Below, piece by piece: positions 51,261 to 63,562 of a stretch of DNA of 64,000 bases. The notes beneath the pieces are model-generated. The model was not told where the DNA came from. It did no database searches and worked only from the letters and a program-made list of their open reading frames with translations. Where the stretch lies: assembly GCA_902499925.1 (NCBI GenBank), contig GCA_902499925.1_4130.1, one strand, 5' to 3'. Numbering within the stretch: the first letter of the stretch is position 1; the number at the start of each line of letters is the position of its first letter. The translations under genes and the position numbers were made by a program. This DNA is from Escherichia coli (lineage in GTDB: Bacteria > Pseudomonadota > Gammaproteobacteria > Enterobacterales > Enterobacteriaceae).

Positions 51261-51674
51261 TTATGCTGGTACACAATTTTTTATAATGAATACACGTTTC
51301 ATGAATGAACTTTCATATACGTACTTCAGTTTACCATTTTCACGCATACGATGAAACACATCTTTACCGCTAGTACTCCATGTTGAACCAGTCTCTGCAT
51401 CAACATTGTTCATTACACCAGATGTTACGTTCACCCCGTACTTGAAGCTAAAGGTACTACCTTCTTCTACCAGAGGGATTGGTGTACTACGTTCATGTTC
51501 CAGTACAAGTTTACTGCCGATGATGTTGTACGAAGTTAGCTTGCATTTTAAAACACCCATCTCTTGTGCAGTTGGGTAATTCTTCTCAAACAAATCAGAT
51601 ACTTCATTTGCATAACAAACTGAACTAATCATAAGAAGTAATGAACTGATAGAACGGAAAATAACTTTTAACAT
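51261..51674 (-). CDS. secreted protein with signal peptide (137 aa)
   Basis: N-terminus MLKVIFRSISSLLLMISSVCYA; RBS GGAGGCAAAC; cassette upstream. Confidence 0.6.
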   Translation of the reverse strand: MLKVIFRSISSLLLMISSVCYANEVSDLFEKNYPTAQEMGVLKCKLTSYNIIGSKLVLEHERSTPIPLVEEGSTFSFKYGVNVTSGVMNNVDAETGSTWSTSGKDVFHRMRENGKLKYVYESSFMKRVFIIKNCVPA

Positions 51675-51700
51675 GTTTGCCTCCAGTAGTTGATGAAATG

Positions 51701-51740
51701 ATTATAGCAAAAAGGGCCGACCGAAGTCAACCCTTTTCTT
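51701..51740 (-). promoter_or_regulatory. terminator-promoter cassette
   Basis: GGGTTGAC-ttcg-GTCGGCCC, T-run, TATAAT. Confidence 0.55.
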
Positions 51741-52115
51741 TTATATTTTACATGTCATGTCTGGTTTTGGCTTTTCATTCTTTGGCTTTTCAAATGGATT
51801 TGGCTTAGGGGACTTTTTATCTTTATCATCTTTAGCTTTCTTTTTGTTTTCTTTTTTATCCGATTTGTCAGCTTTGTCTTTCTTATCTTTTGAATCTTTG
51901 TCAGCTTTAGATTGTGGTTCCTCACATACAGCAGCTTTTGGCTCTGGCATATCACATGAGTTATCCACAGGTTTAATGAACTCTTTACAGTTGTAGAAGT
52001 ATAAACTTTCATTGGTAGTAAGATTGTGGAATCTAAAGGTATTTTCACCATTAGTATATACTTTCTTAGTACTCTCAATATCATTACACATTGCAACTGT
52101 GTCACCGGAATTCAT
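51741..52115 (-). CDS. protein with Cys-containing N-domain and Lys/Asp-rich tail (124 aa)
   Basis: RBS AGGTATCGAGC; overlaps stop of upstream gene; preferred over alternative-frame ORF 51755..52105. Confidence 0.5.
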   Translation of the reverse strand: MNSGDTVAMCNDIESTKKVYTNGENTFRFHNLTTNESLYFYNCKEFIKPVDNSCDMPEPKAAVCEEPQSKADKDSKDKKDKADKSDKKENKKKAKDDKDKKSPKPNPFEKPKNEKPKPDMTCKI

Positions 52116-52353
52116 GCTCGATACCTATTACATCCGACTTACGTTCAGATAGTATTCCAGACGTATATCGATCTTTGTTATCAAATGCATTGAACCCTAT
52201 AGTTTTATTATTGTCATGTACCAATCCTCTAGTGTAAGACTTGGTATAGAACTCACCGTTTCTAAACTCCTGTCTAGCAATGGAGCACTGGTATTCAGTA
52301 CTATAAACTATATCAGTAAACAATACAAGTGAAAATAAAACATATTTAAACAT
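52102..52353 (-). CDS. secreted small protein (83 aa)
   Basis: Signal-peptide-like MFKYVLFSLVLFTDIVYS; RBS AAGAGGTAATGCA. Confidence 0.55.
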   Translation of the reverse strand: MFKYVLFSLVLFTDIVYSTEYQCSIARQEFRNGEFYTKSYTRGLVHDNNKTIGFNAFDNKDRYTSGILSERKSDVIGIEHEFR

Positions 52354-52379
52354 TGCATTACCTCTTATAAAACCCTCTA

Positions 52380-52417
52380 CAATATTTACAAAAAAAGGTT
52401 GACCGAAGTCAACCTTT
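52380..52417 (-). promoter_or_regulatory. terminator-promoter cassette
   Basis: Perfect hairpin AAGGTTGAC-cgaa-GTCAACCTT, T-run, TAAATA. Confidence 0.5.
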
Positions 52418-52424
52418 TAAATGT

Positions 52425-61983: not shown

Positions 61984-61986
61984 TTG

Positions 61987-62208
61987 TCATTCTCCATCAT
62001 ATTCAGTGAGTATTACACTATGTACGGTTTCAATATAGCGTTGTGTTTTTGGTGTGTTGTACTTAGTTACTTCATCAAACAATTTAAATAGTGCATGTGT
62101 TGGACTTAATGCACGAACAAATACATCAATCTTCTGTACTTCTTTCTTATAACCACGTACATTATTAAACTCAGATACATGCTCATACACAATGTAGTAA
62201 CGATTCAT
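61987..62208 (-). CDS. hypothetical protein (73 aa)
   Basis: Start overlaps stop of 62205..62720. Confidence 0.5.
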   Translation of the reverse strand: MNRYYIVYEHVSEFNNVRGYKKEVQKIDVFVRALSPTHALFKLFDEVTKYNTPKTQRYIETVHSVILTEYDGE

Positions 62209-62720
62209 ATATTAAGTAGTTCCATAAATTCATCGATCAAGGAAGTTCTAATGCACATAACAAATTCAAAATCAACATCGATAGTATCGAGTAGTTTGAA
62301 CAACTTTGGTACATTTGGGTCATTCAACTGGAAGTTATGAATCAAGCTCTGTTGAAACACACTTTCTTCAGTACTGTAATCAATAACAAAATATTCAGCT
62401 ACACCTGGTGGTGAATAAACATCATATAATATCTGACGTTTATTGTGTGTTTCTGAACCAGGACAATATATAAGTTCTATTTCATACGAACCTGCCGAGG
62501 ATCTATCATAAAACACAATTTCAGTACTGATTATTTCACTACCATCACTTCGTTCATGAAAACATACATCGGCATATCGTTTACCATTGGGCTTCAAAAT
62601 CTCATGAGTTGTTTTACCATAACATTTATCAGTTTCAATGTGAATTTTGTCTTGATATTCAGAACGTCTTACATCATTTCCACGATTAAACAATAAGATC
62701 AACAACTCATTAATATCCAT
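62205..62720 (-). CDS. hypothetical protein (171 aa)
   Basis: RBS GAGGCGAAATA. Confidence 0.6.
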   Translation of the reverse strand: MDINELLILLFNRGNDVRRSEYQDKIHIETDKCYGKTTHEILKPNGKRYADVCFHERSDGSEIISTEIVFYDRSSAGSYEIELIYCPGSETHNKRQILYDVYSPPGVAEYFVIDYSTEESVFQQSLIHNFQLNDPNVPKLFKLLDTIDVDFEFVMCIRTSLIDEFMELLNI

Positions 62721-62920
62721 TATTTCGCCTCGATAACCTTAAGGTTAACAAAATCACCTTTTACTTTCATGCATTTGAATTCAGTGCGAGTTTCATCCCC
62801 ACTATCGCGAGGCCAATGAGTAGCAGAGTAGCACTGGTCAGGCGTTTTATATACACCTTCACCAATAGTACGAGTGATCTCACCATTGGTGAGAACTACT
62901 GCGAGATATAAAGTAAGCAT
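62720..62920 (-). CDS. hypothetical protein (66 aa)
   Basis: RBS AGGAATTCCC. Confidence 0.5.
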   Translation of the reverse strand: MLTLYLAVVLTNGEITRTIGEGVYKTPDQCYSATHWPRDSGDETRTEFKCMKVKGDFVNLKVIEAK

Positions 62921-62928
62921 GGGAATTC

Positions 62929-63075
62929 CTATAAAAATTTATTAATAATAATAGCACCCAAACCAAGTACTGCAATAATTGAAGATACCCACATTACCGC
63001 ATTCACTGCACCAGTAAGTTCTTTATCAAACTCCCTGCACTTCTTGCGGTAATCTTCCCACTCTTTGTTATTCAC
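62929..63075 (-). CDS. small membrane-anchored protein (48 aa), GTG start
   Basis: Untracked ORF with AGGAG 7 nt before GTG; C-terminal hydrophobic helix. Confidence 0.3.
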   Translation of the reverse strand: MNNKEWEDYRKKCREFDKELTGAVNAVMWVSSIIAVLGLGAIIINKFL

Positions 63076-63287
63076 ACTGCCACTCCTAATAGGTCGGTAG
63101 CTTTCTTCAGTACTACGTCAATTGTTTCCAGTACTGCACCTTTGTGTTCAATTGATACAATATTATTATAAGTATCAAGGTCCAAGTACTCCATATATTC
63201 AGTTTTGAATACACGAACATCAGTACTAGTGATTTTAATATCACAACCTTTATCCCAAATAACCTGCATCATTTCATTGGTAGTCAT
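63072..63287 (-). CDS. hypothetical protein (71 aa)
   Basis: RBS AAGGTTGAATA. Confidence 0.55.
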   Translation of the reverse strand: MTTNEMMQVIWDKGCDIKITSTDVRVFKTEYMEYLDLDTYNNIVSIEHKGAVLETIDVVLKKATDLLGVAV

Positions 63288-63562
63288 TATTCAACCTTAT
63301 CATAAACAAGTTTGTGTGTGCTTAGTACTTTGTTGAGATGTCCAGGGCATTCATATACATACAATCTCTCCTGACGTTTTTCCCAACCACCACAGATACG
63401 GCCTGATTGTGTACATACCTCATACTCGTTAATAAAAGACTTACCTGTGAATGTACAATCCTGACGAACTAAGTCTTTTGCACTAAACCTGCCGTCATCA
63501 TTACATGCTGTAAGAAACATTGTACAGAATACAAAGACAACTGTCAATAGTTTTTTAATCAT
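63287..63562 (-). CDS. putative lipoprotein (91 aa)
   Basis: Signal peptide with lipobox-like LTAC (MIKKLLTVVFVFCTMFLTACNDD). Confidence 0.55.
   Translation of the reverse strand: MIKKLLTVVFVFCTMFLTACNDDGRFSAKDLVRQDCTFTGKSFINEYEVCTQSGRICGGWEKRQERLYVYECPGHLNKVLSTHKLVYDKVE

What the first reader, a model, noticed from the sequence alone, without database searches (positions are those of the whole stretch)
51261..63562. Concentration of secreted, lipoprotein and membrane small proteins
In about 12 kb at least seven ORFs start with signal-peptide-like sequences (51261, 52102, 54516, 57168, 59058, 59799, and 63287 with a lipobox-like LTAC) and at least six are small membrane proteins (54809, 55081, 56861, 59405, 60243, 60628). 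The locus appears dedicated to envelope-targeted factors, with candidate roles in superinfection exclusion, receptor masking, lysis timing or periplasmic anti-defence.
Basis: partly seen in the sequence, partly recalled or inferred. Interest (0 to 1): 0.5.

Follow-up and report, generated by a model that had tools for sequence, protein, structure and literature searches.

The report
Phage early-region envelope protein cluster
A giant E. coli phage packs one early-expressed stretch of its genome with small membrane, periplasmic and lipid-anchored proteins, including three relatives of the phage T4 Imm protein and a phage-only family shaped like bacterial lysozyme inhibitors, which most likely help an infected cell shut out rival phages, though this is untested.

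Summary
The window comes from an Asteriusvirus jumbo coliphage (121Q/PBECO4 group). 14 of 31 genes in the interval are envelope-targeted, versus 13 of 115 elsewhere (p = 8e-5). Signal peptides, the lipobox and Cys pairs are conserved in orthologs down to 36-60% identity.

1. 60628, 56861 and 54809 are remote relatives of T4 Imm (hhalign 93%; other TM families in the window score 1% or less).
3. The order 60861-60628-60243-59799-59405-59058 is a module conserved as far as Klebsiella phage RaK2. The accessory Imm-like/barrel cassette 55081-54516 is bracketed by promoter/stem-loop elements and is absent from 121Q.

Best reading: an early, fast-evolving battery for superinfection exclusion or envelope modification, working like T4 Imm plus Spackle. 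Function is inferred, not shown. "Dedicated locus" overstates it, because more than half the genes are not envelope-targeted.

The parts
60861..61523 (-). 220-aa soluble protein, first gene of the conserved module. Its 3' end overlaps the start of 60628 by 10 nt. Function unknown.
   Evidence: PHROG 18298, unknown function. No Pfam or PDB hit. Synteny with 60628 through 59058 is kept in 121Q, JNE01, RaK2 and contig L014.
60628..60870 (-). 80-aa inner-membrane protein (2-3 TM), T4-Imm-like. This is the conserved member of the module.
   Evidence: TM scan. hhalign to the T4 Imm profile: 48% alone, 81-87% pooled with 56861 and 54809, 93% with the richer alignment. Motif F-x-P-T-L-V-A ... basic loop ... 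V-F-L-L-N. No Pfam hit above threshold.
60617..60644 (-). Perfect sigma70-type promoter, TTGACA-16-TATAAT, 48 nt upstream of the 60243 start codon.
   Evidence: Identical in 121Q.
60243..60569 (-). 108-aa membrane protein (2-3 TM), immediately upstream of barrel gene 59799.
   Evidence: PHROG 31401, unknown function. No similarity to Imm (0.6%). Only 60% identical to its 121Q ortholog.
59799..60164 (-). 121-aa secreted protein (signal peptide cleaved STA|VP). Paralog of 59058 in the disulfide-clamped periplasmic beta-barrel family.
   Evidence: blastp to 59058, E = 1e-5. Aligned invariant Cys pair. Orthologs in 121Q, JNE01, RaK2 and L014 keep the signal peptide and the Cys pair.
59405..59788 (-). 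127-aa membrane protein (3 TM) with a basic C-terminal tail. Its stop overlaps the start of 59058 (ATGA).
   Evidence: PHROG 31707, unknown function. The most divergent gene of the region (44% identity to 121Q).
59058..59408 (-). 116-aa secreted protein (SYA|EP), the type member of the barrel family. Predicted 8-stranded beta-barrel with Cys26 in the first strand and Cys112 in the last.
57168..57392 (-). 74-aa secreted protein (VCA|KP) with a conserved Cys25/Cys69 pair, immediately upstream of Imm-like 56861.
   Evidence: PHROG 31284, unknown function. No detectable relation to the barrel family. 51% identical to its 121Q ortholog.
56861..57097 (-). 78-aa inner-membrane protein (3 TM), T4-Imm-like. 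Accessory: absent from 121Q, present in JNE01.
   Evidence: Pfam PF14373, E = 0.014, 15.7 bits (cut-off 27.9). hhalign to Imm 79%. Presence and absence.
55256..55273 (-). PeSL-like promoter/stem-loop (GGTTGACTTCGGTCAGCC followed by TATAAT), upstream boundary of the 55081-54809-54516 cassette.
55081..55194 (-). 37-aa single-pass membrane protein, first gene of the cassette.
   Evidence: PHROG 35037, unknown function. An ortholog is retained in 121Q.
54809..55072 (-). 87-aa inner-membrane protein (3 TM), T4-Imm-like. Its stop overlaps the start of 54516 (ATGA). Accessory: absent from 121Q and JNE01.
   Evidence: hhalign to Imm 52% alone. Annotated 'immunity to superinfection' in vB_Ec-M-J.
54516..54812 (-). 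98-aa secreted protein (VLA|TP), third and shortest member of the barrel family. Accessory.
   Evidence: blastp to 59799, E = 0.004. Aligned Cys pair. Recovered by the family profile as P0019, E = 2e-9. The JNE01 ortholog keeps the signal peptide and Cys pair.
54476..54493 (-). PeSL-like promoter/stem-loop, downstream boundary of the cassette and promoter for the HNH endonuclease gene.
52102..52353 (-). 83-aa protein with a weaker signal peptide and one conserved Cys. It has its own PeSL-like promoter at 52397-52414.
   Evidence: PHROG 28901, unknown function. The 'lytic conversion lipoprotein' label in fEgEco12 is not supported: there is no lipobox and no similarity to T5 Llp.
51261..51674 (-). 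137-aa secreted protein (CYA|NE) with a conserved Cys44/Cys134 pair and its own PeSL-like promoter at 51715-51732. Absent from 121Q.
   Evidence: No family hit.
62929..63075 (-). 48-aa protein with a C-terminal TM helix.
   Evidence: PHROG 38271, unknown function.
63287..63562 (-). 91-aa lipoprotein precursor (lipobox LTA|C). The mature part has four further conserved Cys.
   Evidence: The lipobox is kept as LTG|C in the 36%-identical JNE01 ortholog. Only 6 clusters known. No similarity to T5 Llp or the Cor-like neighbour. The AF2 model was unusable (pLDDT 52).
63924..63998 (-). Last 24 codons of a second lipoprotein gene, cut by the window end. The full-length 83-aa protein, MKYIVAVLVAFLLTAC..., is seen in relatives.
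   Evidence: PHROG 902, 5e-13 (unknown function), and a weak hit to Cor phrog_1119, 9e-4, over the first 49 residues.
58850..58867 (-). PeSL-like promoter/stem-loop upstream of 58366.

Best explanation
The interval is part of a hyperplastic early region of an Asteriusvirus jumbo phage, transcribed by the host sigma70 RNA polymerase, that loads the infected cell's envelope with small phage proteins.

Its core is a conserved six-gene module, 60861 to 59058. It encodes a T4-Imm-like inner-membrane protein (60628), two other polytopic membrane proteins (60243, 59405) and two paralogous periplasmic beta-barrels clamped by a disulfide (59799, 59058). Two accessory units repeat the design: 55081-54809-54516 (small TM protein, Imm-like protein, barrel) and 57168-56861 (small secreted protein, Imm-like protein). 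At least two lipoproteins lie at the upstream end.

Most likely mode of action (inferred): soon after infection the Imm-like proteins change the inner membrane so that DNA from later-arriving phages cannot cross it. The periplasmic barrels bind and neutralise a periplasm-acting component of incoming virions, most plausibly a tail-associated peptidoglycan hydrolase, as T4 Spackle does with gp5. The lipoproteins may act at the outer membrane. Paralog multiplication, rapid divergence and cassette gain and loss would then reflect an arms race with competing phages.

Shown here: gene structure, targeting signals, paralogy, synteny, promoter signals, remote similarity to Imm, predicted fold. Inferred: early timing, every function.
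For: - Targeting signals are real, calibrated and conserved, and the enrichment is significant.
- Imm link: hhalign of the pooled 60628/56861/54809 families against a T4 Imm profile gives 87% and then 93% (P = 3e-7) over 34-50 columns covering LPxxIA, the basic loop and FxxN. Each family hits the same Imm segment independently (48-79%), while six other TM families from the same window score 0.1-1.1%.
- T4 precedent: Imm plus periplasmic Spackle together give exclusion, and Spackle inhibits the gp5 lysozyme (PMC7677548).
- Each of the three barrel genes directly follows a multi-TM gene, two of them with ATGA overlaps.
- The module order is conserved in 121Q, JNE01, RaK2 and contig L014 at 26-60% identity.
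- Early-type expression: 28 strong sigma70 promoters on the coding strand versus 1.4 expected, nearly all intergenic and 27-58 nt from gene starts.
- Arms-race signature: envelope genes are less conserved than their neighbours (median 69% versus 92% identity to 121Q, p = 0.005; 50% versus 64% to JNE01, p = 0.017). The accessory cassettes are present or absent between relatives and are flanked by PeSL-like elements.
Against: - No experimental data exist for any of these genes.
- The Imm similarity is below Pfam's threshold (15.7 versus 27.9 bits, and only for 56861). It lacks the GWT/GW half of the domain, and a 5.8-billion-protein profile search found no bridging homolog annotated with PF14373.
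- The PliC assignment rests on one predicted model built from a shallow alignment. Foldseek against the PDB gives no hit at E <= 1e-3 and ranks a lipocalin-like barrel (Tp0751) first. Small 8-stranded barrels are functionally diverse.
- The SxSGAxY and YxxxTKG motifs and the Pfam MliC match are absent.
- No secreted protein resembles T4 Sp, T4 Imm.1 or T5 Llp in sequence.
- 60243, 59405, 51261, 52102, 57168 and 63287 have no informative similarity at all.
- More than half of the genes in the interval are not envelope-targeted.
Confidence: 0.45

Rival explanations
1. Lysis control. The small polytopic membrane proteins are holins or antiholins, and the adjacent periplasmic proteins are their regulators (as T4 RI binds the periplasmic domain of holin T). 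They would set lysis timing or mediate lysis inhibition.
For: The membrane proteins are small, with 2-3 TM helices and basic C-terminal tails (e.g. 59405 ends ...KQYKVKKSILSKGNKS). Each is paired, sometimes by translational coupling, with a periplasmic protein. A hydrolase-inhibitor-like fold could equally restrain the phage's own endolysin.
Against: No peptidoglycan-hydrolase or spanin-like gene lies in or next to the interval. The fEgEco12 paper reports a holin and a phage lysozyme, but none of the 43 features of this region in that phage is annotated as one. The promoters are of strong sigma70 early type rather than late. Three of the membrane proteins resemble Imm, not any holin family. 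Several fast-diverging, dispensable paralogs are unusual for an essential lysis function.
Confidence: 0.13
2. Envelope remodelling for purposes other than excluding phages. The periplasmic and membrane proteins would protect or reprogram the infected cell: by neutralising periplasm-acting toxins from competitors (T6SS effectors, colicins), by blocking envelope-based host abortive-infection or defence systems, or by inhibiting host transporters and autolysins to stabilise the cell through the long jumbo-phage cycle.
Against: The only specific sequence-level link is to the superinfection-immunity protein Imm. No similarity to known anti-defence proteins or T6SS immunity families was found by Pfam, PHROGs or NCBIfam. 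PADLOC was not searched.
Confidence: 0.2
3. No common function. This is a hyperplastic 'ORFan' region where unrelated small accessory genes accumulate through recombination at PeSL-like elements. The excess of membrane and secreted proteins reflects several independent acquisitions and local duplications rather than one system.
For: The secreted proteins fall into at least five unrelated families and the membrane proteins into at least four. The genes are interspersed with unrelated soluble genes, virion proteins and a homing endonuclease. Gene content varies between relatives. PeSL-type elements are known to drive such shuffling (PMC2839356, PMC4122927).
Against: The six-gene module keeps its order across phages whose proteins are only 26-46% identical. 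The Imm-like-plus-barrel pairing recurs three times, with translational coupling. The equally plastic, promoter-dense early region at 1-18 kb has almost no envelope proteins (2 of 90 genes in 1-41 kb).
Confidence: 0.2

Closest known systems
T4 Imm (Pfam PF14373, Imm_superinfect)
   Same: Small early inner-membrane proteins. They share TM1 with the conserved Pro (LP-x-x-I-A), a basic loop, the F-x-x-N start of the next helix and the final ...W-S helix (hhalign 93%). They sit next to a gene for a secreted protein, as T4 imm sits next to imm.1.
   Different: They are below Pfam's gathering score or not detected at all. They lack the GWT...GW motif and carry one extra inserted TM helix. There are three paralogs per genome instead of one. 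No exclusion phenotype is known.
MliC/PliC periplasmic lysozyme inhibitors (PF09864), with Brucella PhiA and Neisseria ACP
   Different: Sequence identity is 1-9% and there is no Pfam match. The inhibitory-loop motifs SxSGAxY and YxxxTKG are absent. Foldseek does not rank them. The family is phage-encoded, restricted to Asteriusvirus and Alcyoneusvirus-type jumbo phages, and always sits beside polytopic membrane protein genes.
T4 Spackle (gp61.3)
   Same: A small early periplasmic protein with a cleaved signal peptide and a disulfide. Proposed analogous job: neutralising the tail lysozyme of superinfecting phage, alongside Imm (PMC7677548).
   Different: Spackle is an alpha-helical bundle and the proteins here are all-beta. 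There is no sequence similarity. Any shared function would be convergent.
T5 Llp and phi80/N15 Cor receptor-blocking lipoproteins
   Same: 63287 and the gene cut at the window end are small lipoproteins with a classic lipobox and Cys-rich mature parts. Relatives' records label them 'lytic conversion lipoprotein' or 'Cor'.
   Different: No similarity to T5 Llp (1% or less). Only the neighbouring gene gives a weak Cor PHROG hit (9e-4, over the first 49 residues, which include the signal peptide). They are not next to a receptor-binding protein gene. The Asteriusvirus receptor is not established; flagella have been suggested.
PeSL (promoter-early stem-loop) cassettes of T4-type phages
   Same: A conserved hairpin fused to a near-consensus sigma70 promoter, repeated between small early genes on the transcribed strand and flanking genes that differ between close relatives.
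   Different: The phage lineage is different. Here the -35 box (TTGACT) lies inside the 5' arm of a GGTTGAC-UUCG-GTCAACC hairpin. No role in recombination has been demonstrated.

Membership tests
Imm_superinfect (T4 Imm, PF14373) | Match to the Pfam HMM above the gathering score (27.9 bits) | tested here: not met
   56861 scores 15.7 bits, E = 0.014. One further non-T4 member of the alignment also matches at E <= 1 (3 of 8 members including T4 Imm). 60628 and 54809 had no PF14373 hit when scanned individually. The positive control, T4 Imm, scores 7e-16.
Imm_superinfect (T4 Imm, PF14373) | Conserved core: TM1 with L-P-x-x-I-A, a basic loop, then I-F-x-x-N-L | tested here: met
   hhalign against a profile of T4 Imm plus 7 diverse homologs gives 87% (34 columns) and 93% (50 columns, P = 3e-7). 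Six control TM families score 0.1-1.1%.
Imm_superinfect (T4 Imm, PF14373) | GWT...GW motif in the second TM helix | tested here: not met
   The alignment shows no Trp-Gly motif. The phage proteins have a 12-residue insertion there.
Imm_superinfect (T4 Imm, PF14373) | Blocks DNA entry of superinfecting phage | not testable with these tools
   Needs plating-efficiency and DNA-injection assays.
MliC/PliC lysozyme inhibitors (PF09864) | Eight-stranded antiparallel beta-barrel | tested here: met
MliC/PliC lysozyme inhibitors (PF09864) | Disulfide between beta1 and beta8 | tested here: inconclusive
   The Cys pair is invariant across all members and lies in the first (24-28) and last (108-114) strands of the model. 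The literature hallmark is from PMC5507604.
MliC/PliC lysozyme inhibitors (PF09864) | Inhibitory motifs SxSGAxY (loop 4) and YxxxTKG (beta6) | tested here: not met
   The regex scan found no SxSGAxY. The only YxxxTKG within the family is a non-conserved chance match next to the signal peptide in one ortholog.
MliC/PliC lysozyme inhibitors (PF09864) | Pfam or sequence-level similarity | tested here: not met
   No Pfam hit at E <= 1. The family profile against PDB sequences gives nothing relevant. The exhaustive profile search returns only phage family members.
MliC/PliC lysozyme inhibitors (PF09864) | Inhibits a lysozyme or other peptidoglycan hydrolase | not testable with these tools
   Needs purified protein and enzyme assays.
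T4 Spackle | Alpha-helical bundle fold or sequence similarity | tested here: not met
   hhalign gives 1% or less for all secreted families. The model is all-beta.
T5 Llp / Cor receptor-blocking lipoproteins | Lipobox-processed small outer-membrane lipoprotein | tested here: met
   63287: MIKKLLTVVFVFCTMFLTA|C, conserved as LTG|C at 36% identity. Neighbouring gene...FLLTA|C. 52102 has no lipobox.
T5 Llp / Cor receptor-blocking lipoproteins | Sequence or profile similarity to Llp or Cor | tested here: not met
   63287 against T5 Llp scores 0.2%, and against the Cor-like neighbour 0.8%. Its only PHROG is 31263, unknown function. The neighbour hits Cor phrog_1119 at only 9e-4, over residues 1-49.
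Holin/antiholin lysis cassette | Adjacency to endolysin or spanin genes, and late expression | tested here: not met
   No hydrolase or spanin domain occurs in the interval. The promoters are of sigma70 early type. Timing itself was not measured.
PeSL composite promoter/stem-loop elements | Conserved hairpin plus sigma70 early promoter, repeated, co-oriented with genes, flanking variable genes | tested here: met
   8 copies, all on the transcribed strand, against 0.01 expected. The promoter geometry is TTGACT-16/18-TATAAT. They flank the cassette that 121Q lacks. A recombination role was not tested.

The most novel reading that the evidence does not exclude
Jumbo phages of the Asteriusvirus and Alcyoneusvirus groups have independently evolved a Spackle-like defence built on a different scaffold. 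An orphan family of periplasmic, disulfide-clamped MliC/PliC-fold barrels would inhibit the tail-associated cell-wall hydrolases of incoming phages. These barrels are deployed in two or three diverging paralogs, each genetically coupled to a polytopic membrane protein, including three Imm-like proteins. Together they would form a multi-layer, modular superinfection-exclusion battery whose cassettes are exchanged through PeSL-like elements.
Probability: 0.25. Interest if true: 0.65.

Novelty: new variant of a known kind. Interest (0 to 1): 0.45.

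Why it matters
Superinfection exclusion by virulent phages is understood mechanistically in only a few cases: T4 Imm and Spackle, and T5 Llp. How Imm works is still unknown.

If the reading here is right, three things follow.
- It gives a second, structurally unrelated periplasmic inhibitor scaffold used by phages.
- It gives a set of natural Imm variants, three per genome, for dissecting Imm function.
- It gives a conserved operon in which Imm-like and periplasmic partners are genetically coupled, which T4 does not offer.

It also matters practically. Asteriusviruses are being developed for phage therapy against APEC and STEC, and exclusion functions decide which phages can be combined in cocktails. 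Even if the functional guess is wrong, the result assigns cellular location, family relationships and testable partners to about 15 proteins annotated as hypothetical. It also corrects unsupported labels in public records, such as 'lytic conversion lipoprotein' for the homologs of 52102 and 63287.

Tried and rejected
- Library scans. Pfam, PHROGs and NCBIfam scans of all listed proteins and their soluble neighbours returned only 'unknown function' PHROGs and sub-threshold Pfam noise.
- Lipoprotein structure.
- AFDB50 fold search. The library was unavailable.
- BFVD. It returned only family members and uncharacterised viral proteins.
- One superfamily for all secreted proteins? Rejected: hhalign gives less than 1.5% between the barrel family and 51261, 57168, 52102, 63287 and the Cor-like gene.
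- Similarity to T4 Sp, T4 Imm.1 or T5 Llp. Rejected.
- Bridging homologs linking the Imm-like proteins to PF14373. None found in a 5.8-billion-protein profile search.
- The 4,142-aa hit to the barrel profile (P0015). It is an Ig-repeat adhesin matching a short segment 18 times, and I judged it spurious.
- A compositional artefact (an AT-rich genome producing hydrophobic N-termini). Rejected: the 1-41 kb part of the same genome has 2 of 90 such genes, and the features are conserved in divergent orthologs.
- Measuring the Cys-Cys distance in the model.
- Papers on fEgEco12, Sharanji, PA5oct and the jumbo-phage overview. None discusses these genes.

Full report
**Source and context.** The 12.9-kb interval matches Escherichia phage EC.P1 over its full length at 98.8% identity. 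It matches about 40 other jumbo coliphages of the Asteriusvirus (121Q/PBECO4) group at 83-99%. All genes of the interval lie on the minus strand, densely packed, and nearly all are 'hypothetical' in the public records. A few automatic labels exist in relatives. fEgEco12 calls the homologs of 52102 and 63287 'lytic conversion lipoprotein'. vB_Ec-M-J calls the homologs of 54809 and 56861 'immunity to superinfection', and calls the gene just beyond the window end 'Cor superinfection exclusion protein'.

**Checking the observation.** SignalP and TMHMM were not available, so I wrote a rule-based scan. It uses n-region charge, an uncharged hydrophobic h-region, the -3/-1 rule, a lipobox regex and a Kyte-Doolittle 19-residue window.
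- Calibration on 27 annotated T4 genes: it flagged exactly Spackle (predicted cleavage AMA|GYDKD, giving the published 75-aa mature protein), Imm (2 TM) and Imm.1. It flagged none of the other 24 proteins; one of these, gp40, is annotated as membrane-associated (PMC7677548).
Cleavable signal peptides: 51261, 54516, 57168, 59058, 59799, and more weakly 52102. Lipobox LTA|C: 63287. One to three TM helices: 54809, 55081, 56861, 59405, 60243, 60628.
- The enrichment is significant: 14 of 31 genes in the interval versus 13 of 115 elsewhere (Fisher p = 8e-5), and versus 2 of 90 in the first 41 kb (p = 3e-8).
- It is not a composition artefact, because the signals persist in divergent orthologs. The lipobox is LTG|C in the 36%-identical JNE01 protein. 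The signal peptides and cysteines of the secreted proteins are kept in 121Q, JNE01, Klebsiella phage RaK2 and a metagenomic contig.
- The enriched zone is wider than reported. It includes 3-TM paralog arrays at 41332-43771 and 49929-50964, another 3-TM gene at 48183, and a second lipoprotein gene cut by the window end.

**Imm-like membrane proteins.**
- Direct Pfam scanning gives only a sub-threshold hit of 56861 to Imm_superinfect (15.7 bits against a cut-off of 27.9).
- I built a profile of T4 Imm plus seven diverse homologs taken from phage records. I compared it with the pooled 60628, 56861 and 54809 families. hhalign gave 87% (P = 4e-6, 34 columns).
- After adding more family diversity it gave 93% (P = 3e-7, 50 columns).
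- The aligned core is TM1 with the invariant Pro (LP-x-x-I-A), the basic loop, the F-x-x-N start of the next helix and the last helix.
- Each family on its own hits the same Imm segment (48%, 79% and 52%). Six other TM families from this window score 0.1-1.1%.
- Against membership: the GWT...GW motif is missing, an extra helix is inserted, and no bridging homolog carries PF14373.
- I conclude these are probable remote relatives of Imm, three per genome.

**A new periplasmic barrel family.**
- 59058 and 59799 are paralogs (E = 1e-5), and 54516 is a more distant member.
- All members have a signal peptide, a Cys a few residues into the mature chain and a Cys near the C-terminus. Both are invariant.
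- The family is extremely narrow. It has 8 clusters in the 5.8-billion-protein set and 10 clusters among 1.84 billion representatives in an exhaustive profile search. It occurs only in Escherichia, Salmonella and Klebsiella jumbo phages.
- AlphaFold2 on a 10-sequence alignment gives pLDDT 78.5. The model has an N-terminal helix (the signal peptide) and eight strands, with the two Cys in the first and last strands.
- According to PMC5507604, an 8-stranded barrel with a conserved beta1-beta8 disulfide is the hallmark shared by MliC/PliC and ACP. ACP inhibits lysozyme even though it lacks the SxSGAxY and YxxxTKG motifs.
- The phage family also lacks those motifs and any Pfam MliC match.
- The specific assignment is not robust to method. 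Foldseek against the PDB gives no hit at E <= 1e-3 and ranks the lipocalin-like Tp0751 barrel first.
- BFVD offers only uncharacterised viral proteins. AFDB50 was unavailable.
- So 'small periplasmic disulfide-clamped 8-stranded barrel' is well supported. 'PliC/MliC-like' is the best but not the only fold reading. 'Hydrolase inhibitor' is an inference.

**The other secreted proteins.** 51261 (Cys44/Cys134), 57168 (Cys25/Cys69) and 52102 (a single Cys) are unrelated to the barrel family and to each other (less than 1.5%). They have no informative database match. The conserved Cys pairs fit oxidised periplasmic proteins. Lipoprotein 63287 has four further conserved Cys, six known clusters, an unusable model (pLDDT 52) and no similarity to T5 Llp or to its Cor-like neighbour. 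The Llp label in fEgEco12 is therefore unsupported, and 52102 is not a lipoprotein at all. The neighbouring, truncated gene hits a Cor PHROG only weakly (9e-4, over residues 1-49, which include the signal peptide).

**Organisation.**
- The order 60861 (soluble, 220 aa), 60628 (Imm-like), 60243 (TM), 59799 (barrel), 59405 (TM), 59058 (barrel) is conserved in 121Q and JNE01. It is also conserved in RaK2 (26-46% identity) and in a metagenomic contig. The last two carry an extra 86-aa gene after the Imm-like gene, identified as a DksA/TraR zinc finger in the contig.
- In the window, every barrel gene directly follows a multi-TM gene. 59405/59058 and 54809/54516 overlap by ATGA.
- The cassette 55081-54809-54516 is bracketed by two copies of a GGTTGACTTCGGTCAACC hairpin whose 5' arm is the -35 box of a TTGACT-N16/18-TATAAT promoter.
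- This element occurs 8 times in the window, always on the transcribed strand, against 0.01 expected. It resembles the PeSL promoter/terminator cassettes that mediate gene shuffling in T4-type phages (PMC2839356, PMC4122927).
- Consistent with that, 121Q lacks 54809, 54516, 56861 and 51261, and JNE01 keeps only some of them. The HNH/NUMOD4 endonuclease at 53923 is an insertion next to one such element.
- Strong sigma70 promoters (at least 11 of 12 matches) number 28 on the coding strand versus 1.4 expected. Nearly all are intergenic and 27-58 nt from a start codon, which argues for early transcription by the host polymerase.
- Envelope genes diverge faster than their neighbours: median identity to 121Q is 69% versus 92% (p = 0.005), and to JNE01 50% versus 64% (p = 0.017).

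**Interpretation.** The best-supported model (confidence about 0.45) is an early battery for envelope modification and superinfection exclusion that works like T4 Imm plus Spackle.
- The Imm-like proteins act at the inner membrane.
- The periplasmic barrels bind a component of incoming virions, most plausibly a tail peptidoglycan hydrolase.
- The lipoproteins possibly act at the outer membrane.

The arms-race signature, the paralog multiplication and the cassette mobility all fit this model. Three rivals remain:
- lysis control (0.13);
- other envelope conflicts, such as protection from periplasm-acting toxins or from host defences (0.2);
- a functionally heterogeneous ORFan region (0.2).

They include two virion proteins with a shared N-terminal motif and a homing endonuclease.

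**Novelty and limits.** I found no paper discussing these genes. Phage exclusion through an Imm-type protein plus a periplasmic inhibitor is a known kind. A beta-barrel MliC/PliC-fold version, in several paralogs genetically coupled to membrane partners, would be a new variant.

Everything functional here is inference from remote homology, one predicted model built on a shallow alignment, synteny and promoter motifs. No dedicated signal-peptide or topology predictor could be run, no expression data are available, and no phenotype is known.

Noticed in passing
window 8696-8713, 46632-46649, 47353-47370, 51715-51732, 52397-52414, 54476-54493, 55256-55273, 58850-58867 (all minus strand): A repeated GGTTGAC-TTCG-GTCAACC hairpin whose 5' arm is the -35 box of a TTGACT-N16/18-TATAAT promoter. 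There are 8 copies against 0.01 expected. It resembles the PeSL shuffling elements of T4-type phages and flanks genes that vary between relatives.
   Followed up: partly
window 1-18100 and 44600-64000, minus strand: 28 near-perfect sigma70 promoters (at least 11 of 12 matches, many TTGACA-16-TATAAT) on the coding strand versus 1.4 expected. In 1-18 kb they recur throughout the small-gene array, in several stretches before each successive gene, which suggests unusually dense early transcription units driven by the host polymerase.
   Followed up: partly
window 41332-43771 (7 genes) and 49929-50964 (3 genes), minus strand; also L003:16309-16632 in RaK2: Tandem arrays of paralogous 3-TM proteins of about 110-120 aa (hhalign between the two arrays 57%). 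The 49929-50964 trio, 43086 and the RaK2 homolog end in a conserved R-x-N/K-[LIM]-P-E/N-R/K motif. No database match and no similarity to Imm.
   Followed up: partly
window 23391-41295, plus strand: An array of about a dozen paralogous genes of roughly 340-450 aa. The two scanned members carry RCC1-repeat beta-propeller domains (Pfam RCC1 / WD40_RLD). The array makes up the only plus-strand block and coincides with a switch in GC skew.
   Followed up: partly
window 18684-23284, minus strand: Tandem arrays of ORFs of about 60-70 aa falling into three paralog groups (6, 3 and 6 members), many starting MNKEHKEFY... Function unknown. They lie on the minus strand although GC skew here is positive.
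   Followed up: partly
window 53923-54465, minus strand: An HNH_3 + NUMOD4 homing endonuclease inserted between a PeSL-like element and the 497-aa virion protein gene. It is present in EC.P1 but absent from fEgEco12, vB_Ec-M-J and most other close relatives, and it accounts for their 95% coverage.
   Followed up: yes
window 52425-53918 and 55282-55665, minus strand: The two proteins annotated as virion structural proteins share an N-terminal segment (...K/RY-L/V-D/N-SLGLL..., blastp E = 2e-6) although they differ fourfold in length. It may be a common packaging or processing signal.
   Followed up: no
L006 (T4) 11637-12014, gene imm.1: T4 imm.1, immediately upstream of imm and labelled 'iduronate sulfatase' in the RefSeq record, has a strong signal peptide with a lipobox-like LAGC. 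So T4 Imm is also paired with an exported protein of unknown role.
   Followed up: no
L003:7627-7887 (RaK2) and L014:1243-1503: An 86-aa gene is inserted between the Imm-like gene and the next membrane gene of the conserved module in RaK2 and in a metagenomic relative. In the metagenomic contig it is a DksA/TraR-type zinc-finger protein (precomputed Pfam). It is absent from the Asteriusviruses.
   Followed up: no
window 51741-52115, minus strand: A 124-aa protein with a long, highly charged K/D/E/P low-complexity C-terminal half (KADKDSKDKKDKADKSDKKENKKKAKDDKDKK...), sitting between two secreted-protein genes. It is absent or replaced in 121Q.
   Followed up: no
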